Source: Candidatus Hadarchaeota archaeon
GTDB lineage: Archaea > Hadarchaeota > Hadarchaeia > Hadarchaeales > JAGGTB01
Length of the DNA: 64,000 bases
Assembly: GCA_964554215.1 (NCBI GenBank)
Contig: CAZKND010000001.1
Location: 9,158-73,157 of the forward strand
Direction: 5' to 3'
A model generated the notes under the pieces. It saw nothing but the letters and a program-made list of their open reading frames with translations. It had not been told where the DNA came from and made no database searches. Shown here piece by piece: positions 6,301-61,486 of the stretch. The position numbers and the translations under genes were made by a program. How positions within the stretch are numbered: position 1 is the first letter of the stretch; the number at the start of each line of letters is the position of its first letter.

Positions 6301-7896
6301 ATGTCAACGGAAAATAAGAGAGCTCAAAAAGAGATTATAGAAAGAATAGTAAAGGGCGAGATCTCAGACAAAAAAAATCTAGAAAAGAAAAAAAGAGAAA
6401 TAAGCAAAAAATTCGGACTTTCCGGAGTACCAAGCAACGCCGAAATATTGAAAACCGCAGGGAAAGAGAAAAGAGACGAACTAATTCCTTTACTAAGAAA
6501 AAAACCAGTCCGTTCTATTTCTGGAGTTACTGTCATAACAGTTATGCCGGAACCAAAAGGATGCCCGAAGGACGATCCATGTATTTACTGCCCCGGAGGT
6601 CCTGAAGAGGACACCCCTCAGAGCTATACCGGTAAAGAACCTGCTTCTGCCAGAGCAAAACAGGCCTCTTACGATCCAGTAAAACAGATAAATCGTAGAA
6701 AAAAACAGCTCAAAGCAATCGGGCATGTAGTAGACAAAGTGGAGCTAATTATATTTGGAGGAACATTCTTATCTCAACCAATCAATTATCAGAAAGAATT
6801 CGTCCGCAATTGTATAGATACTATTTCTGAAAATGATTCTTCAGACCTAAAAACTGCAAAAAAAAGAGCCGAAACTTCCGATACCAGAGTAATAGGAATA
6901 ACTTTCGAAACCAGACCGGATTATTGCCGAAAAGAACAAATAGATAATATTCTGAATTTTGGAGGTACCAGAGTAGAAATAGGAGTACAAACTTTAGATA
7001 ACGAAATTTATCGGAAGACGAATCGTGAACATACATTACAAGATGTGATTAATTCTACTCAAGAAGCTAAAGATGCCGGGCTAGCCGTAGTCCACCATAT
7101 CATGCCTGGTCTACCGGGTTCAACTCCAGAGAAGGACTTGGAAAACTTTGAGAAGCTTTTTGACAATCCGAAATTCAGACCCGACATGTTGAAAATTTAT
7201 CCGTGCTTAGTGATTGAAGACACTGAACTCCACGAGATGTGGAAAAAAGATAATTATCAACCTCTCACAGAAGAAGAAGCTTACGATCTAATCGCAGACA
7301 TGAAAGAGAAAACCCCTGAGTGGGTTAGGATCCAACGTATACAAAGAGACATACCTTCCGGAGAAATCGAAGCTGGCGTTCAGAAAGGAAATTTACGAGC
7401 TATTGTTCAAAGGAAAATGAAGAGGGAAGGAAGAAAATGCAACTGTATAAGATGTCGAGAAGTAGGTCATAAAACAAAAAATGAAAATATTAATCCAAAA
7501 GTAGAAAATGGAGAAATATTAGTCAGAGAATACGAAGCTTCAAAGGGAAATGAAATATTTATCTCCTACGAGGATACAAAAAAGGACATTATTTTCGGCC
7601 ATCTTAGAGTGAGAATACCCTCAGAAAACGCACATAGAAAAGAAATCAATAACAAAACCGGCCTAGTCCGTTTGCTTCACGTTTTTGGAAAGCTAGTATC
7701 CGTAGGAAATGAAAACAAATCAAACAGTTGGCAACACTCGGGAATAGGAAAAAAGATGTTGAAAAGAGGAGAGAAAATAGCCCAAGAAGAATATGATGTT
7801 AACAAGATGTCTATCCTGGCCGGAATCGGAGCAAGAGAATATTATAGAAAACTAGATTACGAACTAGAAAGTCCCTACATGGTTAAAAATATTTAA
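6301..7896 (+). CDS. elp3: Elp3-type tRNA uridine(34) acetyltransferase (radical SAM plus GNAT)
   Basis: Radical-SAM cysteine cluster (CPKDDPCIYCPGG). Central region RPDMLKIYPCLVIEDTELHEMWKKDNYQPL. C-terminal GNAT motif QHSGIGKKMLKRGE. I moved the start to the ATG at 6301 (MSTENKRAQ); the track ORF begins at 6142. Confidence 0.85.
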   Translation: MSTENKRAQKEIIERIVKGEISDKKNLEKKKREISKKFGLSGVPSNAEILKTAGKEKRDELIPLLRKKPVRSISGVTVITVMPEPKGCPKDDPCIYCPGGPEEDTPQSYTGKEPASARAKQASYDPVKQINRRKKQLKAIGHVVDKVELIIFGGTFLSQPINYQKEFVRNCIDTISENDSSDLKTAKKRAETSDTRVIGITFETRPDYCRKEQIDNILNFGGTRVEIGVQTLDNEIYRKTNREHTLQDVINSTQEAKDAGLAVVHHIMPGLPGSTPEKDLENFEKLFDNPKFRPDMLKIYPCLVIEDTELHEMWKKDNYQPLTEEEAYDLIADMKEKTPEWVRIQRIQRDIPSGEIEAGVQKGNLRAIVQRKMKREGRKCNCIRCREVGHKTKNENINPKVENGEILVREYEASKGNEIFISYEDTKKDIIFGHLRVRIPSENAHRKEINNKTGLVRLLHVFGKLVSVGNENKSNSWQHSGIGKKMLKRGEKIAQEEYDVNKMSILAGIGAREYYRKLDYELESPYMVKNI

Positions 7897-8378
7897 GATT
7901 CTATATCTTCTTTCAAGATATTAATAAAGGGTTCTTCCATTTTGTCCTTAACTTTACTATGAACTATGAAGGTTTCAGTTTCCTTAATTCCATCTAAATC
8001 GTGAATCTTCTTAACAAAATCAGTTAATTCATCTCTACTTTCAGTCCACACTTCTAATAAGCCACTATATCGACCGAAAAGACGGAAAAAATTAGATACT
8101 TGTGGATAATTATTTATCTCTTCTTCATCTTTTTCTCTAATCTCAATCTCGGGATCTTCTTGAAGAAAGACAAAAGCCCTGACTGATAAACCTATTCTTT
8201 CAGGATCTAGGACATTTATTGAGTCGTCTATCAAATTGTCCTCTTTAAAATTCTTTATTTTTTTAGAAACAGTCTGTCTCGTGGCGCCTACTTCTTCAGC
8301 TATGTCCACAACCGGTCTATCCGCATCTTTCAAAAGTTGAAGAAGTATCTTCTTATCTAACTCTTTCATGAATCTCAC
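7893..8378 (-). CDS. Lrp/AsnC family transcriptional regulator
   Basis: N-terminal HTH (VDIAEEVGATRQTVSKKIKNF) plus a C-terminal RAM domain. 161 aa. Confidence 0.8.
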   Translation of the reverse strand: MRFMKELDKKILLQLLKDADRPVVDIAEEVGATRQTVSKKIKNFKEDNLIDDSINVLDPERIGLSVRAFVFLQEDPEIEIREKDEEEINNYPQVSNFFRLFGRYSGLLEVWTESRDELTDFVKKIHDLDGIKETETFIVHSKVKDKMEEPFINILKEDIES

Positions 8379-30801: not shown

Positions 30802-31251
30802 CTATTCCGATATATTGTCTTCAACTTTGTCCAACAAAGCCGATTCGTAGTTATTCAAAAGATTATTTCGAAGATTCTCCAATTTATCACTTTTCTTCCT
30901 AAATCTCCTGATGAAAACTACGGAGACAAGTATAGGAGCCACACCTGCAATAATCAGTAAAAAGTAGATCATAGGAGAAGCTTCAAATATCACTTCTGGC
31001 CCCCAAAAAATCGCCATAGTGGCTGCAAAAGCTGCTATTCCAAATATCCAAGCCCCAATTCCGTATTTTAACAATCTCTTAGCATACACCCATTGTACAC
31101 TTGAAAGATTTTCCAATTCATCTTCAATAACGCTAAGTTTCCTTTTGATATCATCAGGACTGGCCTCCTCCGGCTCCATTTCCTCCTCATCAATATCTAC
31201 ATCAAAATCTTTAACATCATCCAAATCTTCAACATCAGCCAAATTATTCAC
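30802..31251 (-). CDS. hypothetical membrane protein (acidic N-terminus, two predicted TM helices)
   Basis: ORF only. No recognisable domain. Confidence 0.4.
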   Translation of the reverse strand: MNNLADVEDLDDVKDFDVDIDEEEMEPEEASPDDIKRKLSVIEDELENLSSVQWVYAKRLLKYGIGAWIFGIAAFAATMAIFWGPEVIFEASPMIYFLLIIAGVAPILVSVVFIRRFRKKSDKLENLRNNLLNNYESALLDKVEDNISE

Positions 31252-31318: not shown

Positions 31319-31714
31319 TCAGGACTTTACTTTGGTTACTGAAATAGAATCTCTTTCCGCGACCTCTCGAAAGCTGTCAACACCGTCCTCTATCTTAGCG
31401 AAAGTGCTAACAGGGCTAACCGGCTGAGAATCTCCATAGAATACACAAAAAGCAGGGCCCTTGGGCCAATACGAAACGTCGCCTTTCTCTGTATTAGCAC
31501 TTCCTTCCTCCGGCTCAATATTCACAGGGATTGTGAAGTAGACCTCTTCCTTGAAGACAGAAGCTTTTCCTTCAAAGGGTAAAGACTCCCAAACGGCTTT
31601 GCAAGTCTCAGGCCTCTCGTCTTCGAGGAGTTTAGCTGTCGCTTCGAAATCGTCACCTGATATCTTAATTCTCTTAGTCATATTATCCTCAGTTAGTCTT
31701 GATTGATTTGCCAA
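31319..31714 (-). CDS. cyclophilin-like superfamily protein (DUF369/PF04126-like)
   Basis: Pattern IKISGDDFEA.L ... LPFEGKASVFKEEVYF ... GDVSYWPKGPAFCVFYG resembles the TM1367-type cyclophilin-like family. An internal ATG (MTKRIKI) is the probable start. Confidence 0.5.
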   Translation of the reverse strand: MANQSRLTEDNMTKRIKISGDDFEATAKLLEDERPETCKAVWESLPFEGKASVFKEEVYFTIPVNIEPEEGSANTEKGDVSYWPKGPAFCVFYGDSQPVSPVSTFAKIEDGVDSFREVAERDSISVTKVKS

Positions 31715-31782
31715 ATAAAACTGATGGACATGAAAATTTTCTCTTTAAAAAACACCGGCACAAAACCCCTAACAGGATTAGA

Positions 31783-32562
31783 ATGCCAATACAAGATTTC
31801 GGCGCGGTATGCGACATAAGTACGCTGACAGATAAGAACTCATTAGAAAAAGCACATCGTTACTTCAAAAACTCCGGTCTATACCTCCCTTCCCCCACAT
31901 ATTCCTGGCTTTCCAGATCTAAGCTTATAGAAGTCCGAAACCAACCAGTGAAATACAGCCTAATCCGAAAAGAAGTACAGAAAAGGAAAATATACCCTAT
32001 CCACTTCCCGGAGATATATGACGAACTCAGCAGACAAATCCTATTTGACACAGATCATAATATTCCCCTAACCGACATAAGAAGTCTATTACTGAGCACT
32101 CATCTTCAAATTCCCACTCTCACATTTGACCCGGAAATGTTGGAACGCATTTCAAAAGAAATAGGGATGATAACAATGAAAGAGATTAAAGTGAACTCTC
32201 ACTGGAAAAAACTCAAAGAGATACTCAGACTATACAGAGAAATGCTCTTCAAAGCAGGAGCAGAATTTCACAAAAATATTGAAAAAAATCAAACTTTTCC
32301 TCAAATAACTCAAGAAATTGAAGAATCACAAAAAGAAGAGATTAAGAGAACGTTAAACGCAATAAATGGAATTCAGGAAAATCAAAAAGCTGGTAAAAAA
32401 ATAAAGTTTCACTTTCTGACCTGGGATATATTACCCAGTCTCAGAGAATACCATGCTCAAAAAATACTACCATCTCAGATGATAGAAAGAATATGTGAAA
32501 GAACAACTCTTCTTATAGCTACCCCTGAAAATTTCGAAAAAACGAAAAATATAGGTAAATAG
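31783..32562 (+). CDS. hypothetical protein (259 aa from the ATG at 31783)
   Basis: ORF with no recognisable domain. Lies in a lower-GC block. Confidence 0.4.
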   Translation: MPIQDFGAVCDISTLTDKNSLEKAHRYFKNSGLYLPSPTYSWLSRSKLIEVRNQPVKYSLIRKEVQKRKIYPIHFPEIYDELSRQILFDTDHNIPLTDIRSLLLSTHLQIPTLTFDPEMLERISKEIGMITMKEIKVNSHWKKLKEILRLYREMLFKAGAEFHKNIEKNQTFPQITQEIEESQKEEIKRTLNAINGIQENQKAGKKIKFHFLTWDILPSLREYHAQKILPSQMIERICERTTLLIATPENFEKTKNIGK

Positions 32563-32638
32563 TTCGAATACACGGAGAAAATTAATAAAATAAACGGAAA
32601 AACAAAAACTCTGAAAATGATTAAAACGGCGGATCAAA

Positions 32639-33976
32639 ATGAAAAAGAAGATTACAGCTGTACTTCTAATACTTTCATTCCTAATCCTACTACCTAGTAG
32701 CAATTTTGTAGTACAGAACTACGCCGAAAGAGATTACGTTCAATACAAAACCGAACCAGAAAATTATAATCCTCCAATCATCAAAATGTCGGAAAACTCA
32801 GGTCTATCGACAAAGATATGGTCAGAAAACAAATACACATACGAAGAAGTTGAAAACTTTCAAGATACTAGAAAAGTTGTTGACCATTATGAAGAAAAAC
32901 CAAAGTACGGAGTGTGGTCCGCAGACTCCTATACCTCAAGAATCCAAGTAGAAGCGGATCTTTCCGAAATGGACGAAGACACTCTAAGTTATCTGGAATC
33001 TACAAAAGACGAGGATTGGTGGTTAAACTATTTTGAATCAGTTTCTTACGGTAGACCTCGAAATTTTAGTTTAGAACCTAATGAAAAGCAAAAATTCGAA
33101 TATGGATTCCAAAATTTTCAAGGATTCATAAATTGGAGAGATTTTAGAATCAGAGGAAGGTTCGGAACCTACTATCATATCCCCATTCCTAGAACTTATA
33201 GATACTTAAAAGAGGAAGGAAAATACCAAGTTCCAATTTATAAAGATGAAAAATACACCCGTTGGCGTACTAAAACTTTCGAAAACATAGAATACGAAGC
33301 AGAAGGATGGAAAAAAGCGGAAATAGAAGTGGAACTTTCAGAATATACCCCTCCCAGCTATATCGAAGACAATATTTATTTGAAATCTAAAGTCAAGCCT
33401 AACGGACTAAACGTAAAACTAGATAATAATATCTTAGACTCAAAATCTTCTGTAATACACCTTAGTATTCAACCTACAAATAAAATGAAAAAAGGGAAGT
33501 ATCCCATCTTTTTAGAAGCATACACCTCTGAAAATGAGAAAATTGACACATCAAAATACAAATTAAACCTCAAAAAAGGAAGTGTCCCTGAAAACAAACA
33601 TAGAAAAATAAACGAAGAAGTATCCGATAAAAAACCGGATGAGAAAGGAGATTCTAAGGAGGGTGAACAAAAAGAATGGGTTGGAGTAGGAGGAACAGTT
33701 TACTCCAGTAAAACAGGTGACAAACTAATAGAATACTCAGATGGAGTAAAAGTCCACATCGAAAGAGATGGTTTTTCCGGAACAGCCTCATGGACCACAT
33801 CAACACAATATATTCACAAAAATCACACATATCAAGACAAAACCTGGGAAATGAAACTAAGAGCTACCGCAGATGGTTACTATAGAGAAACTGCTCAAGT
33901 AACGGATTCTACCGATGACCATGGATGGGCTAACCAGGACTTCGAATTAAAACCCAATTCTAATTTTATAAACTAA
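32639..33976 (+). CDS. hypothetical secreted protein (445 aa), rich in Tyr/Trp/Lys/Glu
   Basis: N-terminal signal peptide MKKKITAVLLILSFLILLPSS. No known domain. Lower GC by eye. Confidence 0.5.
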   Translation: MKKKITAVLLILSFLILLPSSNFVVQNYAERDYVQYKTEPENYNPPIIKMSENSGLSTKIWSENKYTYEEVENFQDTRKVVDHYEEKPKYGVWSADSYTSRIQVEADLSEMDEDTLSYLESTKDEDWWLNYFESVSYGRPRNFSLEPNEKQKFEYGFQNFQGFINWRDFRIRGRFGTYYHIPIPRTYRYLKEEGKYQVPIYKDEKYTRWRTKTFENIEYEAEGWKKAEIEVELSEYTPPSYIEDNIYLKSKVKPNGLNVKLDNNILDSKSSVIHLSIQPTNKMKKGKYPIFLEAYTSENEKIDTSKYKLNLKKGSVPENKHRKINEEVSDKKPDEKGDSKEGEQKEWVGVGGTVYSSKTGDKLIEYSDGVKVHIERDGFSGTASWTTSTQYIHKNHTYQDKTWEMKLRATADGYYRETAQVTDSTDDHGWANQDFELKPNSNFIN

Positions 33977-34005
33977 ATCTAGAAAAAGGAAAGGAATGTG
34001 AAACC

Positions 34006-34884
34006 ATGGGAGAAAACAAAAAAGGTACTAATCAGGATAATAGTTCCGCTTTCACCTACCTAATAGCTTTACTCGTAGTAATATTCATAATCGGAACTTC
34101 TTTAGCAATAACGCCTTTAGGAGATATACTATCCGAAGAATTAGCTGACAGTAAATTTGTCGAAAGTTATGATAACAAAAACTTGAGCAAAAAAGACAAC
34201 TCAAACATACAAGACGAGAACAAAAAAGTGACCTTCACGTATACTGCAAAATACAATCACCTTGGAACAGAAAACGATATATTATTAGACGGTACTGTTT
34301 TCTTCTCCTTTCCAACACCAATGATAGAGAATAATCCTGCAGTGAACCTAGGTCCATATAATCACAAAATTGAAAATAGTACCGTTCAGCTCTTGGCCAA
34401 TTATAAAGAAAACGATGAGAATATAACACAAGTTCAAATAGAAAATGGAAATTATGGAAAATTAATTGACCCACGACAAGACGCAATATTCTCCAAAAAA
34501 CCCTTCCTCTCTAATCCGGAAAATCATGGTAAAAAAATTACAGTTCAATCATCGGGGGGTGGTTTCACTGAAGCTTTTAGAAAAAAAGGACCTGGAGGAG
34601 CAATTTATGAACACGAAAGTATACTAATTGAAGTAAAATTTTCAGTTCAAAAAGAAAAAACAGACGAGGTAACCCTTGAGGATCAAAAAGGCAATATTTC
34701 ATCAAAAATTATTGGAACTACCGATGGACCCAATACAAATCATACTGTTATCCCAATCCAATACTCTGTCTCAGTAACACTTTCTCGAGAAATCGAAAAC
34801 AAACAAAAAGTCGATAAATTTAGATTCAAGGCAGAAAAACCCATACCCAAAGATAAATCTGTTGAACTGAAAAAGATTGCTTAA
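34006..34884 (+). CDS. hypothetical membrane-anchored extracellular protein (292 aa), Asn/Lys-rich
   Basis: Single N-terminal TM helix (FTYLIALLVVIFIIGTSLAI). No known domain. Immediately downstream of the secreted ORF. Confidence 0.45.
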   Translation: MGENKKGTNQDNSSAFTYLIALLVVIFIIGTSLAITPLGDILSEELADSKFVESYDNKNLSKKDNSNIQDENKKVTFTYTAKYNHLGTENDILLDGTVFFSFPTPMIENNPAVNLGPYNHKIENSTVQLLANYKENDENITQVQIENGNYGKLIDPRQDAIFSKKPFLSNPENHGKKITVQSSGGGFTEAFRKKGPGGAIYEHESILIEVKFSVQKEKTDEVTLEDQKGNISSKIIGTTDGPNTNHTVIPIQYSVSVTLSREIENKQKVDKFRFKAEKPIPKDKSVELKKIA

Positions 34885-34886
34885 TA

Positions 34887-36422
34887 TCACATGAAGGCTT
34901 TTACGTCTTGTTTGTCCTGTGCTCTATCATCTTCGTAGTCTTTGGCTATTTCCTCCAGACCAACATCGTGATTTGCTTCTTTTGATTTTCTTTCTCTTAC
35001 ATTTACAAAAACTGGATGATTCACAGCCTCACCTACAACAAGAGCCTGTCCAACAGGGAGGGAAGATATAATGCTTGAAGTGTCCTTCGTAATCTTTTCG
35101 GAAGATTTCTTTATATGGTCCAAATCGTACGGATTCGTCACTCTGAGAATTATATTCGTGTTTGCCTGGGAGAGTACGGTGGTAGACAGCCTCTTAGGTC
35201 TTTGACTTATGAGGATTAATGAGGCGTAAAATTTCCTACCCTCTCGAGCCACCTTTTTCAAAATCCCTGATGAAATCGAAGAATTCTGCGAGGGAGCAAA
35301 CTGGTGAGCTTCCTCCACCAACATAGCGAAAGGAGGAGCTTTTCCCGATTTTCTCTTGTTGAACAATTTTCTAGCAAAATATGTGAGAATCACCCTCTTC
35401 TCTCTGAGACTGAATACCCTACTCAGATCTAAAATCGCTGCTTTTCCCGGTTTCACAAGTTCTTTCCATGTCGGATAGTCATTCTTTCCAAATATTCCAA
35501 GTTTTTTGAGATCGTACAACCTGTCAAGCAATGCTTTACGGAGCTGTTTATTGGACTTACCGTTGTCCTCCACTCGAGCTATAACATCATCAAGATCATA
35601 TCTTCCCTTACCATTCCTCATCTCGGATCTCAAGTTACTTATCACTCTACTGAGCTCTCTCGCTTGACTACTGCTCATGTCAGGAGCAAACTCCTTGAAC
35701 TGATAGGCCGACATGCTTGGAACTCCAATTTTCACATTTTCACCGCCTATCAAAGACACCTGATCGGAATAATCGACTCCTTCCGACCCATTAGACTCCG
35801 CTAAGGAAGTGTATTCTCCATGGACATCGACAATAACCGAAGCAATCCTACCATCATCTCTATCCCGTTCTAACAGTTCTTCGATGAGGACGGAGGCCGT
35901 GTAGCTCTTACCGGCACCGCTCATAGCAAGAATGGCGGCATGTTTGCGCAAAAGTTTAGTTAGGTCAAATTTGGCCCTAAGATCGTGATAACGAATCTCT
36001 CCTAAATCCACACCGCCATCCTTATCAATCCCTAAAAAATCGCAAAGCGAATCTTCATCGATTTTGAAAACCTTATCTCCCGGGGAAACTGGAAAACTTA
36101 CCTGTTTCAACCCATCATCGGATTTTATCCCTGAGGACTTCGCTTCTGCAACGATATATTCCCACCTGCCAGCCGGAAAAATCGAAGTCAGAGACTCCTC
36201 CCCTTTTTCGTATTCTTTCACCGACTCAGGTCGCATAAAATAACGGTTGGTCTTCTTAACGTTCTGAACCTGGGCAATCACCTTACCCTCTTTCGATTCC
36301 AACTCTACAAATTGACTCCTACGAACTGGAATCCCCCCATTCTTGTTTGTAACTACGAAAGAGAAATCTCCTGAAGATGGTCCGTCAGGAGTGCAAATTA
36401 CTGTGCCTAACTCTTCTGTCAT
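34887..36422 (-). CDS. herA: HerA DNA helicase/translocase (FtsK-HerA superfamily ATPase)
   Basis: N-terminal HAS-barrel. Walker A AILAMSGAGKS. Walker B MLVEEAHQFAP. The gene is translationally coupled to upstream nurA. Confidence 0.8.
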   Translation of the reverse strand: MTEELGTVICTPDGPSSGDFSFVVTNKNGGIPVRRSQFVELESKEGKVIAQVQNVKKTNRYFMRPESVKEYEKGEESLTSIFPAGRWEYIVAEAKSSGIKSDDGLKQVSFPVSPGDKVFKIDEDSLCDFLGIDKDGGVDLGEIRYHDLRAKFDLTKLLRKHAAILAMSGAGKSYTASVLIEELLERDRDDGRIASVIVDVHGEYTSLAESNGSEGVDYSDQVSLIGGENVKIGVPSMSAYQFKEFAPDMSSSQARELSRVISNLRSEMRNGKGRYDLDDVIARVEDNGKSNKQLRKALLDRLYDLKKLGIFGKNDYPTWKELVKPGKAAILDLSRVFSLREKRVILTYFARKLFNKRKSGKAPPFAMLVEEAHQFAPSQNSSISSGILKKVAREGRKFYASLILISQRPKRLSTTVLSQANTNIILRVTNPYDLDHIKKSSEKITKDTSSIISSLPVGQALVVGEAVNHPVFVNVRERKSKEANHDVGLEEIAKDYEDDRAQDKQDVKAFM

Positions 36423-37606
36423 TTGAACGGCCTCCTCTCTCTTCTGAGGTCCATCATAGTTGACGGTTCTAACTGGTCAGCGATATTGTCCCTCAGGATT
36501 GTGATTTCTTCCTGGGAGAGCGATGCTCTGGCATCGGCTTCTATAAGTACTGATGGGAGGGCACAAGCATCGTGAGAAGCCGATAGGGAATTGATAAGCG
36601 ATGCAGTTTTTTCAATTGTTTTCTTCGGGCGTTTAGGATTTGTCAAAAATTCCACTCTAGTAGGTCTATCATATTCAACTGGTTTCATATAGAAAGCTCG
36701 AACCCTCTTGCTCCAGGGACGAAGCTCTGATAATAGACTTGAGGGTGTTTTGGAATATTTGAATGTGAAGCTTCTCTCCCCCGCTCCAAGAAGGTAATCT
36801 AGAAATGCTGTATCTCTGGATTTCATAACTATGTTTTTATTATCGTTGAACCGTGCACGATTTTTCTCAGACATATCAGCGTTTTCCAAAATTTCAGGAA
36901 ATATCTTCTCTTCGAAAATACTTGTTAATCTTGTACTCCTGCTGTCCTCCACAGCCCCTATCAACAGAACATCATTTCTCGTAGCGGTTTTGTATATTTT
37001 GCTATAAGTTTCAATTACTTCTTCGTAAAGTTCTTCCGTCCTTTCCTCTGAGGACTTATGGATATATTGTGGAACTATCGACCCATCTAAAACCATTACA
37101 TCAAGATCAACCCCTTTCAAAACTTCGTAAGCTCTTTGAAGCTCTGTAAGCTGCCTTTTCAGTCCTGTCAACAAGTCCAGCTCCTTAGCGTCCAGAGGTT
37201 CGTGAACATTAACCAGTTGAGGAGCGGGTACTTCGCTAGGATGATAATCCACATTCTTTAAATCACCCTCCTTATATTGAAACATCGAAACAACTGCTCT
37301 GACGAGAATAAGATCTAAACCATGTAGTGGTTTCGTAAGAACACCGCCGTCTACTCCAGCGACCTTCAAATCTTCCAAGGATTTTTCTTCTACAGGATAG
37401 ACAAGTTTTGGTTCTACAGGGCAATCGTTTTCCCCGTGAGGGATTTCTACATCGGTCTTTACATCCCTAATCAAGTCTGATAGAACCTTTCTCTTCTCAC
37501 CTTGTGTCTTTATTTTATCGGCTATCGTACCAATTTTATTTTCCAAATTCTTATGATTCGATAAGTTAATGGAATCATCTACCGGTATCATCGGATCAGG
37601 CACCAT
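36419..37606 (-). CDS. nurA: NurA 5'-3' nuclease
   Basis: VAGVDGG and VMVLDGS motifs. Overlaps the herA start by 4 nt. Confidence 0.75.
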   Translation of the reverse strand: MVPDPMIPVDDSINLSNHKNLENKIGTIADKIKTQGEKRKVLSDLIRDVKTDVEIPHGENDCPVEPKLVYPVEEKSLEDLKVAGVDGGVLTKPLHGLDLILVRAVVSMFQYKEGDLKNVDYHPSEVPAPQLVNVHEPLDAKELDLLTGLKRQLTELQRAYEVLKGVDLDVMVLDGSIVPQYIHKSSEERTEELYEEVIETYSKIYKTATRNDVLLIGAVEDSRSTRLTSIFEEKIFPEILENADMSEKNRARFNDNKNIVMKSRDTAFLDYLLGAGERSFTFKYSKTPSSLLSELRPWSKRVRAFYMKPVEYDRPTRVEFLTNPKRPKKTIEKTASLINSLSASHDACALPSVLIEADARASLSQEEITILRDNIADQLEPSTMMDLRRERRPFK

Positions 37607-38818: not shown

Positions 38819-39577
38819 ATGTTTGATGACGATAAATTCAGAAATCTGAGAATATTTAATCTTTCGATGGGATTTTTCCATCTGATTCAGTCCATGTTAA
38901 TGATATTTCTTAGCACAGACTTCGCGATATCAGTGACGAGTACCTACATGCAGGGACCACCAGGTACTGTAGAAGTAGCAAGAGAGGTTCTATTCGATAT
39001 AAAATTAGGACCTGCAATCGCATTGTTCCTATTGCTCTCAGCGGTGGCCCATTTCTATCTCTCATCTGTAGGTTTTGATTGGTACAAAGAAAATCTAAAA
39101 AATCATATAAATAAGGCTCGATGGATAGAGTATTTCTTCAGCAGTTCTCTCATGATCGTTATCATAGCTATGCTGGTTGGAATCACCGATTTAGCAGCTT
39201 TGGTAGCCTTGTTTGTTGTAAACGGATCCATGATCTTGTTCGGTTGGCTAATGGAATCATATAATCAAAACACTGAAGATGTTGCTTGGTCACCTTTCGT
39301 ATTCGGATGCATCGCCGGGATTGCTCCCTGGATTGCAATAGCCATCCGGCTAGCAACAGCTTTCTCCTTCACTTCCGTTCCTATTCCAAGTTTCGTTATC
39401 TGGATATTTGTATCGATAGCTATCTTTTTCAATATCTTTGCAGTTAACCAAGCCTTACAATACAAAGAAGTAGGGCCGTGGGAGAACTATCTTTTCGGAG
39501 AAAAGGTCTACATAGCCCTCAGCCTCATCGCGAAATCATTGCTAGCTTGGCAGGTCTTTGCAGGCACACTGGTCTAA
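38819..39577 (+). CDS. heliorhodopsin (7-TM retinal protein, inverted topology)
   Basis: FNLSMGFFHLIQ ... TYMQGPPGT ... WIEYFFSSS ... NGSMILFGWLMESYNQ ... FGCIAGIAPWIAIAI ... QALQYKEVGPWENYLFGEKVYIALSLIAKSLLAWQVFAGTL align block-for-block with heliorhodopsin 48C12 as I recall it. The Schiff-base lysine is in SLIAKS (codon 39533-39535) and the counterion Glu is in WIEYF. Confidence 0.85.
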   Translation: MFDDDKFRNLRIFNLSMGFFHLIQSMLMIFLSTDFAISVTSTYMQGPPGTVEVAREVLFDIKLGPAIALFLLLSAVAHFYLSSVGFDWYKENLKNHINKARWIEYFFSSSLMIVIIAMLVGITDLAALVALFVVNGSMILFGWLMESYNQNTEDVAWSPFVFGCIAGIAPWIAIAIRLATAFSFTSVPIPSFVIWIFVSIAIFFNIFAVNQALQYKEVGPWENYLFGEKVYIALSLIAKSLLAWQVFAGTLV

Positions 39578-43766: not shown

Positions 43767-44270
43767 GTGGCAGCAGGATTTAATTCAATGAGAGCAATGG
43801 CGGAACTCATGAGTCAAATGGACAAAGATGAAACCGTTACGTTGATTGAGTCTTCCAGAGATATTCTTGACGCTCTTGCAGAAAACCCTGAAGTATTGAA
43901 AACATTCAGTTCTATCCTGAAAGAATTAGCAGAAGATGAAGAAATCGCTAAAGGTTTATCCAATTTAGTTTCCTTAGCCGGACCATCTATCGATGCTCTG
44001 AACAACACAATGACTCCCGAAGCAGTAGACATGATGCACGAACTAGCACAGAACGATGATGTGAAGGAAGGCATAGGTTCTTTCCTATCAATTATAGACC
44101 CCGAAATGTTAGGGGCTCTACTACCAGTGATCGGATCAATTATAGGAGCAGTCCTATCTGAAATATCCAAAAATGAAGAAGCAAAAGAACACTTGATTGG
44201 TTTAATCTCTCATAGTGGTCCATTGGCTAAGAAAGCCAACACCGCTTTTATGGGTGAATCAGTCGACTAA
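43767..44270 (+). CDS. all-alpha helical-repeat protein (DUF1641-like?), copy A
   Basis: GTG start 7 nt after the AAGGAGGTG RBS. Differs from copy B (53366-53869) at 27 of about 167 aligned residues (roughly 84% identity), by my manual count. Confidence 0.6.
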   Translation: MAAGFNSMRAMAELMSQMDKDETVTLIESSRDILDALAENPEVLKTFSSILKELAEDEEIAKGLSNLVSLAGPSIDALNNTMTPEAVDMMHELAQNDDVKEGIGSFLSIIDPEMLGALLPVIGSIIGAVLSEISKNEEAKEHLIGLISHSGPLAKKANTAFMGESVD

Positions 44271-44936: not shown

Positions 44937-45098
44937 ATGAAATGTTGGATATGTCGAGAAGAGAAGGAAGACCTTAAGGAGATAGAAGCCATGGGGTCGG
45001 AGCATCACGTGTGTTCTGACTGCCTCTGGAGGGTATTAGACGAGCACGGTAAGCCAAAGTACGAGACAAAGCCTAAGTGGGAGAATATCTATGAGTAA
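44937..45098 (+). CDS. small zinc-ribbon protein (53 aa; CWIC ... CSDC); not in the supplied ORF track
   Basis: My own translation: MKCWICREEKEDLKEIEAMGSEHHVCSDCLWRVLDEHGKPKYETKPKWENIYE. Overlaps the start of the downstream epimerase gene by 8 nt. Confidence 0.35.
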   Translation: MKCWICREEKEDLKEIEAMGSEHHVCSDCLWRVLDEHGKPKYETKPKWENIYE

Positions 45099-46284
45099 TT
45101 CTGATAAAGTCCTAGTCATGGGAGCGTGTGGTAACGTCGGCTCGAAGTTAGTGAGGATTCTGCTGGATAACGGATACGATGTAAGGGCTAGCGACCTGGA
45201 GGATGCGAGTAAGGAGCTTTTAGGGGACCTTGATGTGGAGTTCGTTCCCGGGGACATCACGAAACCAGAAACTTTACAAGACGTTGTCGAGGACGTGGAC
45301 GCGGTTTTTAACACGGTATCATTCCTGGCCTACTCGAACCTTATCTCTTACGACCAGATGTACAAGGTCAATGTAGAGGGGGAAAGGAACTTACTTGAGG
45401 CCACCATGGAAAACAATGACGATCTTAAGGCCTTCATACACTGGGCTTCGGGAGAAACTTACGGTCTGGGCGGTTTGTTTGAAGAGCGGTTCCTCCATGA
45501 AAATGGAGAAAGTAGAGAGGATCATCCTCAAACTGCATCTGATGCTCCCTATCCGAAGACGAAATTGCTAGGTGAGCGAGAGTGTTGGCAGTACTACGAG
45601 GAGGAGGATTTACCATTGATAGTAATGCGACCATCCATGATTTATGGACCGGAGCCATCATTCGAGGACAGAAGGTGGCTCAGATACTCCAAGTATTTCA
45701 TGGTAATGCGGGATTTAGTAGAGATGATGGGAGGATGGCCAGGGCTTCTGAACTTTAAAAACCCGCTTGTCCACGCGGAGGATTCAGCCAGAGCGGCAGC
45801 ATTCCTTTACGAGAACAAAGAGGATGCCATAGGTGAGGCATTCAATATCGTGGACGACCAAAATTACACCATGGAAGACATCGTTCGTTTCATGTTTGAC
45901 TATTTCGGCTGGGATATTCAAGAAAATCCTTCTGCACATCTCAAGCCCCTGTTGAAGGGACTTCCACTGCCAAAACCCACCATCAGGGTGTTCAAGAAGG
46001 CGTACAGGGCCTGGATGGACGAAGTAAGGGAACAGGGACCAATCTGGTGGGACTCGAACTACCAGGATCACTATCTTGAAGAGATGCTGAGCATGGAGAA
46101 TTACTGTGAGGACTTCAAATATTCCAACAGAAAGATAAAGGATCTCGGCTTTGAATTCAAGTATCCGGACGTGAGGGACGCCTTACCAGACATATTCGAG
46201 AACTGGAAGGAAAAAGACCTGGTGCCAGAGAGCTCCGGATTCAAGCACTTCTTTCTCAAGGCATTCCTGCTGGATGAACGCTAA
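45091..46284 (+). CDS. NAD-dependent epimerase/dehydratase (extended SDR) family protein, divergent homolog of 53902-55089
   Basis: Rossmann motif VMGACGNVGSKL and catalytic YxxxK (APYPKTK). Noticeably higher GC than its surroundings. Roughly 35-40% identity to the other copy by eye. Confidence 0.8.
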   Translation: MSNSDKVLVMGACGNVGSKLVRILLDNGYDVRASDLEDASKELLGDLDVEFVPGDITKPETLQDVVEDVDAVFNTVSFLAYSNLISYDQMYKVNVEGERNLLEATMENNDDLKAFIHWASGETYGLGGLFEERFLHENGESREDHPQTASDAPYPKTKLLGERECWQYYEEEDLPLIVMRPSMIYGPEPSFEDRRWLRYSKYFMVMRDLVEMMGGWPGLLNFKNPLVHAEDSARAAAFLYENKEDAIGEAFNIVDDQNYTMEDIVRFMFDYFGWDIQENPSAHLKPLLKGLPLPKPTIRVFKKAYRAWMDEVREQGPIWWDSNYQDHYLEEMLSMENYCEDFKYSNRKIKDLGFEFKYPDVRDALPDIFENWKEKDLVPESSGFKHFFLKAFLLDER

Positions 46285-53365: not shown

Positions 53366-53869
53366 GTGGCAACAGGATTTAATTCAATGAGAGCAATGGC
53401 GGAACTTATGAGTCAAATGGACCAAGACGAAGCCGTTACGTTAATCGAATCTTCCAGAGATATTCTTGACGCTCTTGCAAACAACCCAGAAGTACTGAAA
53501 ACCTTCAGTTCAATTTTGAAAGAATTGTCGGAGGACGATGAAATAGCTAAAGGTTTCTCCAATTTAGTTGCCTTGGCCGGACCATCTATCAGTGCTCTGA
53601 ACAACGCAATGACTCCAGAAGTAGTAGACATGATGCACGAACTCGTGCAAGACGATGATGTAAAGGAAGGTATAGGTTCATTCCTATCGATCATAGACCC
53701 AGAAGTATTGGGAACTCTACTACCAGTGATCGGATCGGTTGTAGGAGCAATTCTATCTGACATATCTGAAGATGAAGAAGCAAAAGAACATCTAATGGCT
53801 TTAATCTCTCATAGTGGTGCCTTGGCAGAGAAGGCCAACACCGCTCTTATGGGTGAACCAGTCGACTAA
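53366..53869 (+). CDS. all-alpha helical-repeat protein (DUF1641-like?), copy B
   Basis: GTG start 7 nt after the AAGGAGGTG RBS. Paralog of 43767-44270. Confidence 0.6.
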   Translation: MATGFNSMRAMAELMSQMDQDEAVTLIESSRDILDALANNPEVLKTFSSILKELSEDDEIAKGFSNLVALAGPSISALNNAMTPEVVDMMHELVQDDDVKEGIGSFLSIIDPEVLGTLLPVIGSVVGAILSDISEDEEAKEHLMALISHSGALAEKANTALMGEPVD

Positions 53870-53901: not shown

Positions 53902-55089
53902 ATGTCAGGAAAAAAGAAAGCTCTGGTCACAGGTGCGTGTGGCTTCGTAGGCTCGCATATTATTGACCTTTTAGTAGAGGACGATGACTACGAAGATGTG
54001 ATTGCAACAGATCTCGAGTCAGCTGATACTAGTCATCTGGAAGACAAAGACGTAGACTTCAGACCGGCTGACTTTACAAAACCGGAGACCATCGATGAGA
54101 TACTGGATGAAGACATAGACGTTATTTTCAACCCAGCTGCGGCATTTAATTACGAGATGCCCATGCAGGTGATGAAGAAAATAAACGTTGAAGGAGGACG
54201 AAACTTTGCAGAAGCTGTGGTTGAAAACGTCGAGGACCTAGATATATTCGTCCATGTTAGCACCGGAGAAATCTATGGATACAACATGTTTGGAAAGAGC
54301 GAAGAACTAGATGAAGACGGTCATTTCAAGGAAGTAGAATCTAAAACACCTGGTGAAGCTCCCTATGCAAAAACCAAAAAACTACAAGAAGAAGAGATTT
54401 GGGAACTACACGAGGAAGAAGATCTACCAGTTGTAGACATGAGACTTGGAACTGTTTATGGACCAGGATTGTTCTTTGCAAGACTGGTGAATCTTTTCAT
54501 TGACCTTGCGTCTCTCGGAAGATTCCCAGACAATATCAACTTTAGATGGCCGCTGGTCCATGTCGAAGATGTAGCTTCAGCAGCTAAATTCCTCGCAGAA
54601 AAAGGAGACGAAGTTATAGGCGAGGCCTATAATATAGTGGACGAACAGGAATACATCCTATCGGACATGGTTTACAAAGTAGCTGACTACATGGACATGG
54701 AAGTAGAGAACCTACCTAATATTCCTTCTATGGGTGAACTTTGGAAATTAATTCCAAAGGGAGAACTGGTAGAAGATATTCTAGACGAAGCTTACCCAGA
54801 ATACCAAAACCAAGTGGAAGACCGATATGACGATGATGTCTGGATGAAATACAACCATGCAGGACCATACGCAAAACTCTTGCTAAATAACATGCCTGAA
54901 TGGGACGATGATTTCACATATTCCAACAAAAGTTTGAAAGAAATTGGTTGGGAACCGAAGTACGAAAGTTTCCTCGATGCTATTCCAGAGATTATAGAAT
55001 GGAGTAAAGAAAACGGTTATCTCGTAGAGAATCCAGGTCTAAAGCATCTAGTAACAAAGGCTCTAATCTCCGACCCTTCAGAAGCCTAA
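53902..55089 (+). CDS. NAD-dependent epimerase/dehydratase (extended SDR) family protein, intact copy
   Basis: LVTGACGFVGSHI Rossmann motif and catalytic APYAKTK. 395 aa with a C-terminal extension. Confidence 0.8.
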   Translation: MSGKKKALVTGACGFVGSHIIDLLVEDDDYEDVIATDLESADTSHLEDKDVDFRPADFTKPETIDEILDEDIDVIFNPAAAFNYEMPMQVMKKINVEGGRNFAEAVVENVEDLDIFVHVSTGEIYGYNMFGKSEELDEDGHFKEVESKTPGEAPYAKTKKLQEEEIWELHEEEDLPVVDMRLGTVYGPGLFFARLVNLFIDLASLGRFPDNINFRWPLVHVEDVASAAKFLAEKGDEVIGEAYNIVDEQEYILSDMVYKVADYMDMEVENLPNIPSMGELWKLIPKGELVEDILDEAYPEYQNQVEDRYDDDVWMKYNHAGPYAKLLLNNMPEWDDDFTYSNKSLKEIGWEPKYESFLDAIPEIIEWSKENGYLVENPGLKHLVTKALISDPSEA

Positions 55090-60817: not shown

Positions 60818-61486
60818 TCAGGAAGGTTTTATCAAATGAAAACAGTTGCCATCGCTTTCTCCTATCCCTTTTCCCCCAGAAACTTCACAATTTGACATAA
60901 CGTTTTCTACTACCTCTTTATGCAAGTTACAAAGCTTATCAGAGATTTCGTCATCCAAAACATCATTATCTAGATTATTAAATACGCAATTTCTATATTC
61001 GACCTTAAAAAATCCATTTTCTTTCGATTTCTCAGGAAAGAAACCAAAATCATCTAGCGAATCTATAAATACTTCTAGTTTATCTTCTGTAGAAGAAAAT
61101 TCTCTATCTGGAGCCAAATTTTCCGCTAACCTAGAAGCAGCGCTCGTAAAGACCTTATCCAAAACTTCCTCATCTATTCTTTCCTGTAAATCATCAATCA
61201 TAAAGGAAAAAAGCTTACACGTCTTTTGAGGAAAAATATTGTTTCCCGATTCTGTCAAACTGTACATTTTCTTAGGTCGACCTTTAGAAGCTTTTTCAAA
61301 ATAGGGCTTAACTAAACCTTGATTCTGAAGTGTATCTAAATGGCGTCGAACAGCGCTTTCGTTTATTTCAAGTTTTTCTTCCAAATCAATGGCTGTTAAG
61401 TCTTTATTTAGCAAGTTACTCATTATTAGAGCCCGTGTATCGTTTAAAGGCACTCCTGTTATCTCTGAAAGGTCCATAGTTCTCAA
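60818..61486 (-). CDS. winged-helix (ArsR/TrmB-like) transcriptional regulator with a C-terminal Cys-containing domain
   Basis: LTAIDLEEKLEINESAVRRHLDTLQNQGLV wHTH. Located beside the cdh genes. Confidence 0.55.
   Translation of the reverse strand: MRTMDLSEITGVPLNDTRALIMSNLLNKDLTAIDLEEKLEINESAVRRHLDTLQNQGLVKPYFEKASKGRPKKMYSLTESGNNIFPQKTCKLFSFMIDDLQERIDEEVLDKVFTSAASRLAENLAPDREFSSTEDKLEVFIDSLDDFGFFPEKSKENGFFKVEYRNCVFNNLDNDVLDDEISDKLCNLHKEVVENVMSNCEVSGGKGIGESDGNCFHLIKPS

What the first reader, a model, noticed from the sequence alone, without database searches (positions are those of the whole stretch)
31699..34884. Lower-GC block of three unknown genes including a secreted W/Y-rich protein and a membrane-anchored N/K-rich protein
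The region is visibly AT-richer than its neighbours. It encodes a 259-aa cytoplasmic unknown, a 445-aa protein with a canonical signal peptide, and a 292-aa protein with one N-terminal anchor helix. None has a motif I recognise. The arrangement and composition suggest an accessory, possibly horizontally acquired, cell-surface module such as an adhesin, S-layer accessory or phage-receptor-related function. It abuts herA-nurA.
Basis: partly seen in the sequence, partly recalled or inferred. Interest (0 to 1): 0.5.

Follow-up and report, generated by a model that had tools for sequence, protein, structure and literature searches.

The report
PIN-like gene plus clade-specific surface-protein pair
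The AT-rich block is not a recently imported island: it is one old, phylum-wide PIN-like nuclease gene followed by a fast-evolving pair of cell-surface genes, one secreted and one membrane-anchored, that only the brine-dwelling (MSBL1-type) Hadarchaeota carry and whose function is unknown.

Summary
The three + strand ORFs (259, 445 and 292 aa) exist as described. The 3.2-kb stretch is the lowest-GC stretch of that length in the window (34.9% vs 39.8%).

The "horizontally acquired module" reading is only partly right.
- The GC deficit sits at codon position 1, so it reflects amino-acid composition. Synonymous codon use is native.
- There are no tRNAs, flanking repeats or viral relatives.
- The genes keep the same position in 10 related Hadarchaeota/MSBL1 loci, down to 23-26% identity.

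ORF2 and ORF3 are therefore an old, brine-clade-specific insertion between ORF1 and herA.
- ORF2 is a Sec-type secreted multi-domain beta protein: a novel N-domain, an Ig-like domain, a charged linker and a C-terminal beta domain.
- ORF3 is a membrane-anchored beta ectodomain.
- Both evolve much faster than their neighbours, and the ORF2 family has only 28 relatives among 1.84 billion representative proteins.

Every protein in the ORF2 slot, including giant non-homologous variants, keeps an "RDYVxY" strand just after the signal peptide. I infer that this strand docks onto ORF3, or drives strand-donation assembly. This is untested.

The parts
31319..31681 (-). Context: cyclophilin-like gene, divergent from ORF1. 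It is the conserved left neighbour of ORF1 throughout Hadarchaeota.
   Evidence: PF04126, E 7e-27. Same position in L002-L019 and in L014-L018.
31682..31782 (.). 101-bp divergent intergenic region with an A/T-rich TATA-like stretch (TTTAAAAAA, about 31745-31753) roughly 30 nt upstream of the ORF1 ATG.
   Evidence: Read directly from the sequence. Promoter function is inferred only.
31783..32562 (+). ORF1, 259 aa, pI 9.3. N-terminal PIN-like domain (about aa 1-138, nt 31783-32196) with conserved acidic residues D11, E81 (D80), D98 and D116, followed by a C-terminal alpha/beta domain with no structural match (aa 139-259). Phylum-wide core gene.
32639..33976 (+). ORF2, 445 aa, secreted modular beta protein.
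- Signal peptide: aa 1-29 (nt 32639-32725).
- Conserved N-terminal strand motif ERDYVQYKTEPENY: aa 30-43 (nt 32726-32767).
- Novel W/Y-rich domain of long beta hairpins plus three helices: aa 45-224 (nt 32771-33310).
- Ig-like sandwich: aa 225-330 (nt 33311-33628).
- K/E/D-rich linker: aa 312-346.
- C-terminal beta domain: aa 347-445 (nt 33677-33973).
34006..34884 (+). ORF3, 292 aa. Short cytoplasmic N-terminus, one transmembrane helix at aa 16-38 (nt 34051-34119), and an N/K-rich beta ectodomain at aa 39-292. It is the conserved partner of the ORF2-slot protein. The gene is inverted in more distant relatives.
   Evidence: Alignment A4 of 11 homologues at 21-78% identity. Invariant residues are Y79, P103, P105, R157, E204 and V214, with no catalytic-looking pattern. 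The gene is adjacent to the ORF2-slot gene in 9 loci, on either strand. No family hits; ComGD at E 0.57 only.
34887..37606 (-). Context: the nurA-herA operon. It is convergent with ORF3 here and directly convergent with ORF1 in Hadarchaeum genomes.
   Evidence: PF01935/PF09378 and PF09376. Gene order in L014-L017. HerA is 56-94% identical across loci.

Best explanation
The block is a composite of two unrelated units in a vertically inherited chromosomal region of a brine-clade (MSBL1-type) Hadarchaeota genome.

(1) ORF1 is a core, cytoplasmic, basic PIN-like metal-dependent nuclease with an extra C-terminal domain. It is most likely a housekeeping RNA- or DNA-processing enzyme. It has sat between the cyclophilin-like gene and herA-nurA since before the Hadarchaeum and brine-clade lineages split.

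(2) ORF2 and ORF3 are a clade-specific pair of cell-envelope proteins. They entered the convergent gap between ORF1 and herA in the ancestor of the brine clade and have diverged quickly since.

ORF2 is exported by Sec and its signal peptide is removed. This exposes a conserved N-terminal beta strand ([ER][RK][DEN][YH]V.Y..(I/V)(E/D)N), followed by variable beta-sandwich domains.

ORF3 is held in the membrane by its N-terminal helix, with its beta-rich domain outside the cell.

The most likely mechanism is inferred, not shown. The conserved N-terminal strand of the ORF2-slot protein docks by beta-strand addition onto the ORF3 ectodomain. ORF3 thereby tethers a variable, W/Y-rich, probably ligand- or matrix-binding surface protein to the cell.

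The low GC follows from amino-acid composition. These three proteins have fewer D/E/G/A/V residues (GNN codons) and more K/N/I/Y than the very acidic cytoplasmic proteome. It does not indicate foreign origin.
For: Shown:
- The same gene order (cyclophilin-like | ORF1 | ORF2-type | ORF3-type | herA nurA) occurs in L002/L003, L004, L005, L006, L009 and L010. The trio also occurs without herA-nurA in L008 and L011.
- Hadarchaeum loci L014-L017 have ORF1 directly beside herA-nurA and no ORF2 or ORF3.
- Identity gradient, window vs L005: flanking genes 68-88%, ORF1 62%, ORF2 40%, ORF3 32%.
- Composition: GC1 ranks 1-3 lowest of 45 genes, GC3 is within 1.5 SD, and synonymous-codon log-likelihood z is +0.2, +1.6 and +1.2.
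- No tRNA or flanking repeats, and no viral-contig relatives.
- ORF1 as PIN-like. Its pI is 9.29 where the median is 4.78, and the other proteins with pI above 8 are Elp3, TFX, HerA and RFC.
- ORF2 architecture and Ig-like matches.
- The N-terminal motif is present in 10 of 10 slot proteins. This includes L008 (1315 aa) and L019 (>=1035 aa), whose cores and C-termini do not match ORF2. A permissive regular expression for the motif gave only 4 matches in about 92,000 residues of ORFs; 3 of these were the ORF2-slot proteins and none of the others lay in the first 90 residues.
- AF2 leaves aa 1-44 unpacked.
- An ORF3 homologue accompanies the slot protein in every locus that extends far enough, even after inversion and in L008 where herA is absent.
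Against: - No experiment or complex prediction links ORF2 to ORF3. Adjacency lies within a broadly collinear region, so synteny alone is weak evidence.
- The ORF2 model is only moderately confident (mean pLDDT 57, 8 sequences). ORF3 was not modelled.
- Signal peptide and topology were judged by eye.
- The motif could instead serve self-polymerisation, signal-peptidase recognition, or intramolecular folding with the adjacent N-terminal domain.
- Gene-3 orientation differs between relatives, so ORF2 and ORF3 are not always co-transcribed.
Confidence: 0.55

Rival explanations
1. Strand-donation filament or matrix. Mature ORF2 subunits polymerise outside the cell by inserting their conserved N-terminal strand into the next subunit, as in Sulfolobus threads, Tafi/ABP bundling pili, TasA or cannulae. 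ORF3 would be the membrane anchor or nucleator, analogous to TafF or TapA.
For: - The strand sits immediately after the signal-peptide cleavage site and is conserved across otherwise diverged or non-homologous slot proteins.
- It is left unstructured in the AF2 monomer.
- In threads, the first 7 residues after the SPI site are identical among homologues and form the donor strand (PMC9715654).
- Tafi loci encode a proposed membrane anchor, TafF. Its Natrinema counterparts consist of one transmembrane helix plus a jelly-roll domain (PMC12337348).
- The Ig-like domain resembles pilins and chaperones.
Against: - The locus has no dedicated signal peptidase (SipW/TafD type) or regulator.
- At 445 aa with four domains, ORF2 is large for such a subunit, and slot proteins of 1000-1300 aa are unlikely pilins.
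- ORF3 and ORF2 show no profile similarity, unlike the Saci_0405/0406 pair.
Confidence: 0.15
2. Two-component S-layer. ORF2 would be the outer lattice protein and ORF3 its membrane-bound stalk, analogous to SlaA/SlaB of Sulfolobales.
For: - A secreted anchorless protein sits beside a membrane-anchored protein and both diverge fast.
- Both are present in every brine-clade locus.
- Codon choice is well adapted.
Against: - TM-score to SbsB is only 0.18, so the similarity is limited to Ig-like domains.
- ORF2 has fewer N-glycosylation sequons than chance (2 vs 4.0 expected).
- ORF3 is anchored at its N-terminus and shows no evident coiled-coil stalk, unlike the SlaB architecture as I recall it.
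- The slot protein varies from 417 to over 1300 aa with non-homologous cores, which is unlike a lattice protein.
- Abundance is unknown.
Confidence: 0.12
3. ORF2 is a free secreted glycan- or polymer-binding protein, or an unrecognised hydrolase used for feeding. ORF3 is an unrelated membrane protein that merely sits next to it.
For: - ORF2 is W/Y-rich (9.9%) with many invariant aromatic and acidic residues in the N-domain.
- Relatives carry CarboxypepD_reg and Big-type domains common in secreted glycan-active proteins.
- Weak fold hits to non-catalytic domains of sialidases and hexosaminidases.
- MSBL1 is proposed to ferment sugars (PMC4725937, abstract).
Against: - No catalytic fold or family was detected.
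- There are no invariant His, Cys or Ser residues.
- The ORF3 partner persists through an inversion and through locus rearrangement.
- This reading does not explain the conserved N-terminal motif.
Confidence: 0.1
4. One reading: a recently horizontally acquired three-gene accessory island, possibly phage-related.
For: Lowest-GC 3.2-kb stretch of the window. No annotated families for ORF2 and ORF3. Very rare in databases.
Against: - Native synonymous codon use, with the GC deficit at codon position 1.
- Present at the same site in all related brine-clade loci down to 23-26% identity.
- ORF1 is phylum-wide.
- No tRNA, integrase or flanking repeats.
- No PHROG, PADLOC or viral-contig relatives.
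Confidence: 0.04
5. All three genes form one functional system with herA-nurA, for example a defence or DNA-processing module with a PIN nuclease and membrane sensors.
For: ORF1 is adjacent to herA-nurA across the phylum. HerA-type ATPases partnering with nucleases in defence systems is drawn from my own knowledge and was not checked here.
Against: - ORF1 and herA are convergent, so they are separate transcription units.
- No PADLOC hit.
- ORF2 and ORF3 are absent where ORF1 and herA-nurA are present, and herA-nurA is absent where the trio is present, in L008.
- The whole region is collinear housekeeping DNA.
Confidence: 0.04

Closest known systems
PIN-domain nucleases (VapC toxins; archaeal Nob1)
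   Different: - No PIN HMM reaches threshold.
- It is 259 aa, with an inserted beta hairpin and a 120-aa C-terminal domain that has no structural match.
- It has no adjacent antitoxin gene, unlike VapBC.
- It has no zinc ribbon, unlike Nob1.
- It is a single-copy syntenic core gene of a phylum rather than a mobile toxin.
Strand-donation surface filaments of archaea and bacteria (Sulfolobus thread Saci_0406/0405; Tafi/ABP pili with the TafF anchor; TasA/TapA)
   Same: - Sec-type export.
- A strongly conserved N-terminal strand directly after the cleavage site.
- Beta-sandwich body.
- A neighbouring gene for a single-helix membrane protein with a beta-rich ectodomain, as in TafF.
   Different: - No sequence or top-ranking fold similarity to any of these subunits.
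- No dedicated signal peptidase gene.
- The subunit is much larger and multi-domain.
- Slot proteins of over 1000 aa exist.
- Polymerisation has not been shown.
Two-component archaeal S-layers (SlaA/SlaB) and Ig-domain S-layer proteins (SbsB, SbsC, Sap)
   Different: - Global TM-score is 0.18.
- ORF3's anchor is N-terminal, with no evident coiled coil.
- ORF2 is small and sequon-poor.
- The slot protein is not conserved in architecture across the clade.
CarboxypepD_reg / bacterial Ig-like (Big) domain surface proteins
   Same: Relatives of ORF2 carry a CarboxypepD_reg-type domain straight after the N-terminal motif. One relative's C-terminal domain hits PF13620 weakly (E 0.0065).
   Different: The window's ORF2 itself has no significant hit to these families. 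Its 180-aa N-domain has no known counterpart.

Membership tests
PIN domain superfamily (ORF1) | Compact alpha/beta/alpha PIN fold | tested here: met
PIN domain superfamily (ORF1) | Conserved acidic residues (usually D, E, D, D) forming the metal site | tested here: met
   D11 and D116 are at least 90% conserved, and E81 and D98 are invariant, in 26 sequences. Their spatial clustering in the model could not be inspected.
PIN domain superfamily (ORF1) | Match to a curated PIN profile above threshold | tested here: not met
   No Pfam or NCBIfam PIN hit for the window protein. PIN_5 at E 0.024 in 1 of 26 members. A PDB profile search found no PIN.
PIN domain superfamily (ORF1) | Metal-dependent nuclease activity | not testable with these tools
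   Needs biochemistry.
VapBC toxin-antitoxin (ORF1) | Small antitoxin gene immediately upstream in the same operon | tested here: not met
   Upstream is a 101-bp divergent intergenic region and then the cyclophilin-like gene.
Nob1 (ORF1) | C-terminal zinc ribbon (four Cys) | tested here: not met
   Only 2 Cys in ORF1. The C-terminal domain is alpha/beta without a Cys cluster.
Strand-donation filaments (thread, Tafi/ABP, TasA) | Exported subunit with a conserved N-terminal donor strand after the cleavage site | tested here: met
   Signal peptide plus motif within 15 residues or fewer in 10 of 10 loci. This shows the feature is present, not that it acts as a donor strand.
Strand-donation filaments (thread, Tafi/ABP, TasA) | Incomplete beta sandwich with an acceptor groove | tested here: inconclusive
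   The AF2 model is only moderately confident and its coordinates cannot be inspected.
Strand-donation filaments (thread, Tafi/ABP, TasA) | Homology or fold similarity to known subunits | tested here: not met
Strand-donation filaments (Tafi, TasA type) | Dedicated signal peptidase gene in the locus | tested here: not met
   Neighbouring genes are cyclophilin-like, PIN-like, herA and nurA.
SlaA/SlaB-type S-layer | Membrane-anchored stalk protein with coiled coil and a C-terminal transmembrane helix, plus a large outer protein | tested here: not met
   ORF3's helix is N-terminal (aa 16-38) and the ectodomain shows no evident coiled coil. ORF2 is 445 aa.
SlaA/SlaB-type S-layer | Very high abundance and lattice formation | not testable with these tools
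   No expression or imaging data.
Recently acquired genomic island | Atypical synonymous codon usage | tested here: not met
   Synonymous-codon log-likelihood z is +0.2, +1.6 and +1.2 relative to 45 window genes.
Recently acquired genomic island | Mobility hallmarks (tRNA target, integrase, flanking direct repeats) | tested here: not met
   0 tRNAs in the window, only short chance repeats, and no integrase among the ORFs.
Recently acquired genomic island | Patchy presence among close relatives | tested here: not met
   Present in all brine-clade loci found. Absent only from the distant Hadarchaeum clade.
Type IV pilin-like proteins (ORF3; lead from ComGD, E 0.57) | Class III signal peptide: short charged leader, G/A at -1, then the hydrophobic helix, conserved among homologues | tested here: not met
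   The leader is not conserved. Homologues have plain anchors or three transmembrane helices. The hit is far below threshold.

The most novel reading that the evidence does not exclude
The slot downstream of ORF1 encodes a previously undescribed surface-display or assembly system of brine Hadarchaeota (MSBL1). A short conserved N-terminal 'RDYVxY..IEN' strand, exposed by signal-peptide removal, would act as a universal docking or donor strand. It would attach interchangeable passenger proteins (417 to over 1300 aa, with non-homologous cores) to the ORF3 membrane anchor, or link them into a strand-exchanged filament or matrix. That would be a new archaeal solution to cell-surface anchoring, independent of PGF-CTERM/archaeosortase, lipoboxes and type IV pili.
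Probability: 0.2. Interest if true: 0.55.

Novelty: new variant of a known kind. Interest (0 to 1): 0.3.

Why it matters
Nothing is known experimentally about the cell envelope of MSBL1 / brine Hadarchaeota, an uncultured lineage of deep-sea brines. This analysis separates a core PIN-like nuclease, a candidate housekeeping enzyme with no curated family, from a clade-specific envelope gene pair that appeared with the move into brines. It also identifies a short, testable N-terminal motif shared by otherwise unrelated surface proteins.

If the motif is a docking or donor strand, it would give a handle on how these archaea attach or assemble surface proteins. Practically, it is also a caution: in organisms with a highly acidic proteome, low-GC patches can simply mark less acidic, K/N-rich proteins rather than foreign DNA.

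Tried and rejected
- **Family libraries.** Pfam, NCBIfam, PHROGs and PADLOC on all three proteins gave nothing significant. Pfam on all 26 ORF1 homologues gave only noise. PDB profile searches with A1, A2 and A3 gave nothing.
- **Unavailable resources.** The afdb50 fold library was not available. ORF3 could not be modelled, because both AF2 jobs went to ORF2 and ORF1 and only 4 close ORF3 sequences were admissible.
- **ORF3 as a type IV pilin.** The lead was ComGD at E 0.57. Rejected because the leader and helix are not conserved among homologues.
- **ORF3 as a paralogue of an ORF2 domain.** hhalign probability 0.9%, rejected.
- **ORF2 C-terminal domain as CarboxypepD_reg.** Only one relative hits, at E 0.0065. 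Inconclusive.
- **Glycosylation.** Sequon enrichment as a surface-glycoprotein marker was not significant.
- **Mobile-element hallmarks.** None found.
- **Wider scans.** The viral-contig scan with A2 found nothing, and A4 was too diverged to scan. The metagenome scan returned only the already known JGI contig.
- **Literature.** A search for PIN with HerA/NurA returned four papers, none relevant by title or abstract; I did not open them.
- **Source contig.** An exact look-up of the window's own ORF3 failed.


Full report
**1. Observation**

The region 31699-34884 holds three + strand ORFs:
- ORF1, 31783-32562, 259 aa from the ATG.
- ORF2, 32639-33976, 445 aa.
- ORF3, 34006-34884, 292 aa.

GC is 0.349 against 0.398 for the window. 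This is the lowest of all 3186-nt stretches, 2.7 SD below the mean. The three genes rank 5th, 4th and 2nd lowest in GC among 45 genes of at least 150 aa.

ORF2 has a Sec-type signal peptide (MKKK, a 15-residue hydrophobic core, then ...QNYA|ERDY). It is W/Y-rich at 9.9% against a mean of 3.9%. ORF3 has one N-terminal hydrophobic helix (aa 16-38) and is N/K-rich at 19.8% against 11.8%. The flanking genes are a cyclophilin-like gene on one side and herA-nurA on the other.

**2. Source lineage**

Related loci come from MAGs titled Candidatus Hadarchaeota and Hadarchaeum. One comes from the single-cell genome 'candidate division MSBL1 archaeon SCGC-AAA259E17'. The window proteome is very acidic, with a median pI of 4.78, which fits a brine organism.

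**3. The composition is not a transfer signature**

The GC deficit lies at codon position 1. The three genes have the three lowest GC1 values of 45 genes, while GC3 is within 1.5 SD of the mean. Synonymous codon choice fits the rest of the window as well as or better than an average gene does (z +0.2, +1.6, +1.2).

The three proteins are simply less acidic and richer in K/N than the proteome. D+E is 13-16% against 18.6%, and pI is 9.3, 5.7 and 6.0. D, E, G, A and V all use GNN codons, so fewer of them lowers GC1.

There are no tRNAs, no meaningful flanking repeats, no PHROG or PADLOC hits, and no relatives on viral contigs.

**4. Synteny**

The order cyclophilin-like(-) | ORF1 | ORF2-type | ORF3-type | herA(-) nurA(-) recurs in L002/L003, L005, L004, L006/L012, L009 and L010. 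The trio also recurs in L008/L013 and L011, where herA-nurA is not adjacent.

Identities to the window fall in the order flanks > ORF1 > ORF2 > ORF3:

| Comparison | Flanking genes | ORF1 | ORF2 | ORF3 |
|---|---|---|---|---|
| Window vs L002 | 79-94% | 76% | 72% | 65% |
| Window vs L005 | 68-88% | 62% | 40% | 32% |
| Window vs L006 | 48-76% | 48% | 26% | 24% |

The block is therefore vertically inherited and old, with fast-evolving ORF2 and ORF3.

ORF3 is on the + strand in the window, L002 and L005. It is on the - strand in the other six loci.

**5. ORF1 is older than the other two**

ORF1 homologues (34-40% identity) occur in Hadarchaeum, Hadarchaeales and Hodarchaeaceae MAGs. There the order is TYW2 | cyclophilin-like | ORF1 | herA nurA. 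No ORF2 or ORF3 homologue and no large ORF lies in the 0.5-0.8 kb gap. L014 instead has an unrelated 253-aa ORF there.

So ORF2 and ORF3 entered the convergent ORF1/herA gap in the ancestor of the brine clade.

**6. ORF1 is PIN-like**

The 26-sequence alignment A1 shows near-invariant D11, invariant E81 and D98, and near-invariant D116. It also shows the PIN-like stretch LTDLRGLLLAAHLQLPILTFD.

UniRef labels the MSBL1 homologue a 'PIN domain-containing protein'. ORF1's pI of 9.29 is one of five above 8 among 56 window proteins. The other four are Elp3, TFX, HerA and the RFC large subunit, all nucleic-acid binders.

No curated PIN HMM passes threshold, so ORF1 is a divergent PIN-like protein with a C-terminal domain that has no structural match. 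It is not VapBC-like, because there is no antitoxin gene. It is not Nob1-like, because there is no zinc ribbon.

**7. ORF2**

ORF2 has only 8 homologues among 5.8 billion clusters. A profile search gave 28 hits among 1.84 billion representatives, of which 9 score below 1e-30.

AF2 with 8 sequences gave a mean pLDDT of 57, but 70-90 over aa 45-330. That region comprises long beta hairpins with a three-helix insert (aa 45-224) and an Ig-like sandwich (aa 225-330). Residues 1-44 and 330-445 are unmodelled.

**8. ORF3**

The 11 homologues share a membrane anchor (one or three helices) and a roughly 200-residue beta-rich ectodomain. Only a few positions are invariant: Y79, P103, P105, R157, E204 and V214.

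A weak ComGD hit (E 0.57) suggested a pilin. The N-termini are not conserved in the class III manner, so I rejected that idea. ORF3 shows no profile similarity to ORF2.

**9. The shared N-terminal motif**

In all ten loci, the protein encoded just downstream of ORF1 has a signal peptide. Within 15 residues of the predicted cleavage site comes the motif [ER][RK][DEN][YH]V.Y..(I/V)(E/D)N.

This includes L008 (1315 aa, 65 Cys) and L019 (at least 1035 aa, from the MSBL1 single-cell genome). Their cores and C-termini do not match the ORF2 profile. More distant hits P0046-49, P0053, P0062 and P0063 also carry it. A permissive regular expression for the motif matched only 4 times in about 92,000 residues of ORFs; 3 of these were ORF2-slot proteins and none of the others lay in the first 90 residues.

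A strand kept constant while the passenger domains change, always next to an ORF3-type anchor, points to an intermolecular role.

Published archaeal filaments offer a precedent. In Sulfolobus threads, the first seven residues after the SPI site are identical among homologues and form the donor strand (PMC9715654). Tafi loci encode a proposed membrane anchor, TafF, whose Natrinema counterparts consist of one membrane helix plus a jelly-roll domain (PMC12337348).

The resemblance is functional only. No homology, no dedicated signal peptidase and no polymer have been shown here.

**10. Verdict**

The locus is ordinary chromosomal DNA carrying:
- a core divergent PIN-like nuclease gene, and
- an ancient, brine-clade-specific, rapidly evolving pair of envelope proteins of unknown function.

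My preferred mechanism is that ORF3 tethers the ORF2-slot protein through its conserved N-terminal strand. This is inference. The main rivals are strand-donation polymerisation and a two-component S-layer. Recent horizontal acquisition, a phage link, and a functional three-gene operon with herA-nurA are all poorly supported.

Interest is modest. The motif is a concrete and testable lead, but nothing here contradicts current knowledge.

Noticed in passing
window 38819-39577 (+): A heliorhodopsin gene (PF18761, E 8.6e-100) in a Hadarchaeota/MSBL1-type genome, syntenic in L002/L003. It is curious for a lineage described from dark deep-sea brines.
   Followed up: partly
window 43788-44270 and 53387-53869 (+); 45091-46284 and 53902-55089 (+): A duplicated two-gene unit. 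A 160-aa acidic protein with no Pfam hit occurs twice (84% identical). Each copy is followed by an NAD-dependent epimerase/dehydratase, and these are 39% identical to each other.
   Followed up: partly
L004 6110-7093, L006 10274-11092, L008 12892-13707, L009 12483-13301, L010 3045-3872, L011 12527-13474 (all - strand) versus window 34006-34884 (+): The ORF3 gene is inverted between subclades. In most relatives it points the same way as nurA-herA and lies 68-146 bp downstream of herA. In the window, L002 and L005 it follows ORF2 on the + strand.
   Followed up: partly
L008 8866-12813 (+); L019 6690-9796 (+): Giant variants occupy the ORF2 slot: 1315 aa with 65 Cys in repeats in L008, and at least 1035 aa at a contig end in L019. 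They share only the N-terminal RDYxxY motif and an Ig/CarboxypepD_reg-like domain with ORF2.
   Followed up: partly
window 7893-8369 (-) and 60818-61477 (-): The other low-GC troughs of the window are small transcription regulators (Lrp/AsnC and ArsR/PadR-like). In this genome, low GC tracks particular protein types rather than foreign DNA.
   Followed up: partly
window 30802-31251 (-): A 149-aa protein with a very acidic N-terminus and two predicted membrane helices. It has no significant Pfam hit and is conserved in synteny between TYW2 and the cyclophilin-like gene in the brine clade.
   Followed up: no
window 61613-63004 and 63015-63974 (-): Two adjacent CdhD-family (CO dehydrogenase/acetyl-CoA synthase delta subunit) genes, one with an N-terminal Fe-S domain. 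They suggest a Wood-Ljungdahl-type module at the window's end.
   Followed up: no
L014 3050-3898 (+): In one Hadarchaeota MAG, a 282-aa protein with an N-terminal membrane helix and a coiled-coil region lies between the cyclophilin-like gene and ORF1. This is another lineage-specific insertion at this locus.
   Followed up: no
window 34887-37606 (-): nurA-herA stand alone here, with no mre11/rad50 beside them in the window or in the related loci examined. HerA is one of the few basic proteins in the window (pI 8.75).
   Followed up: no
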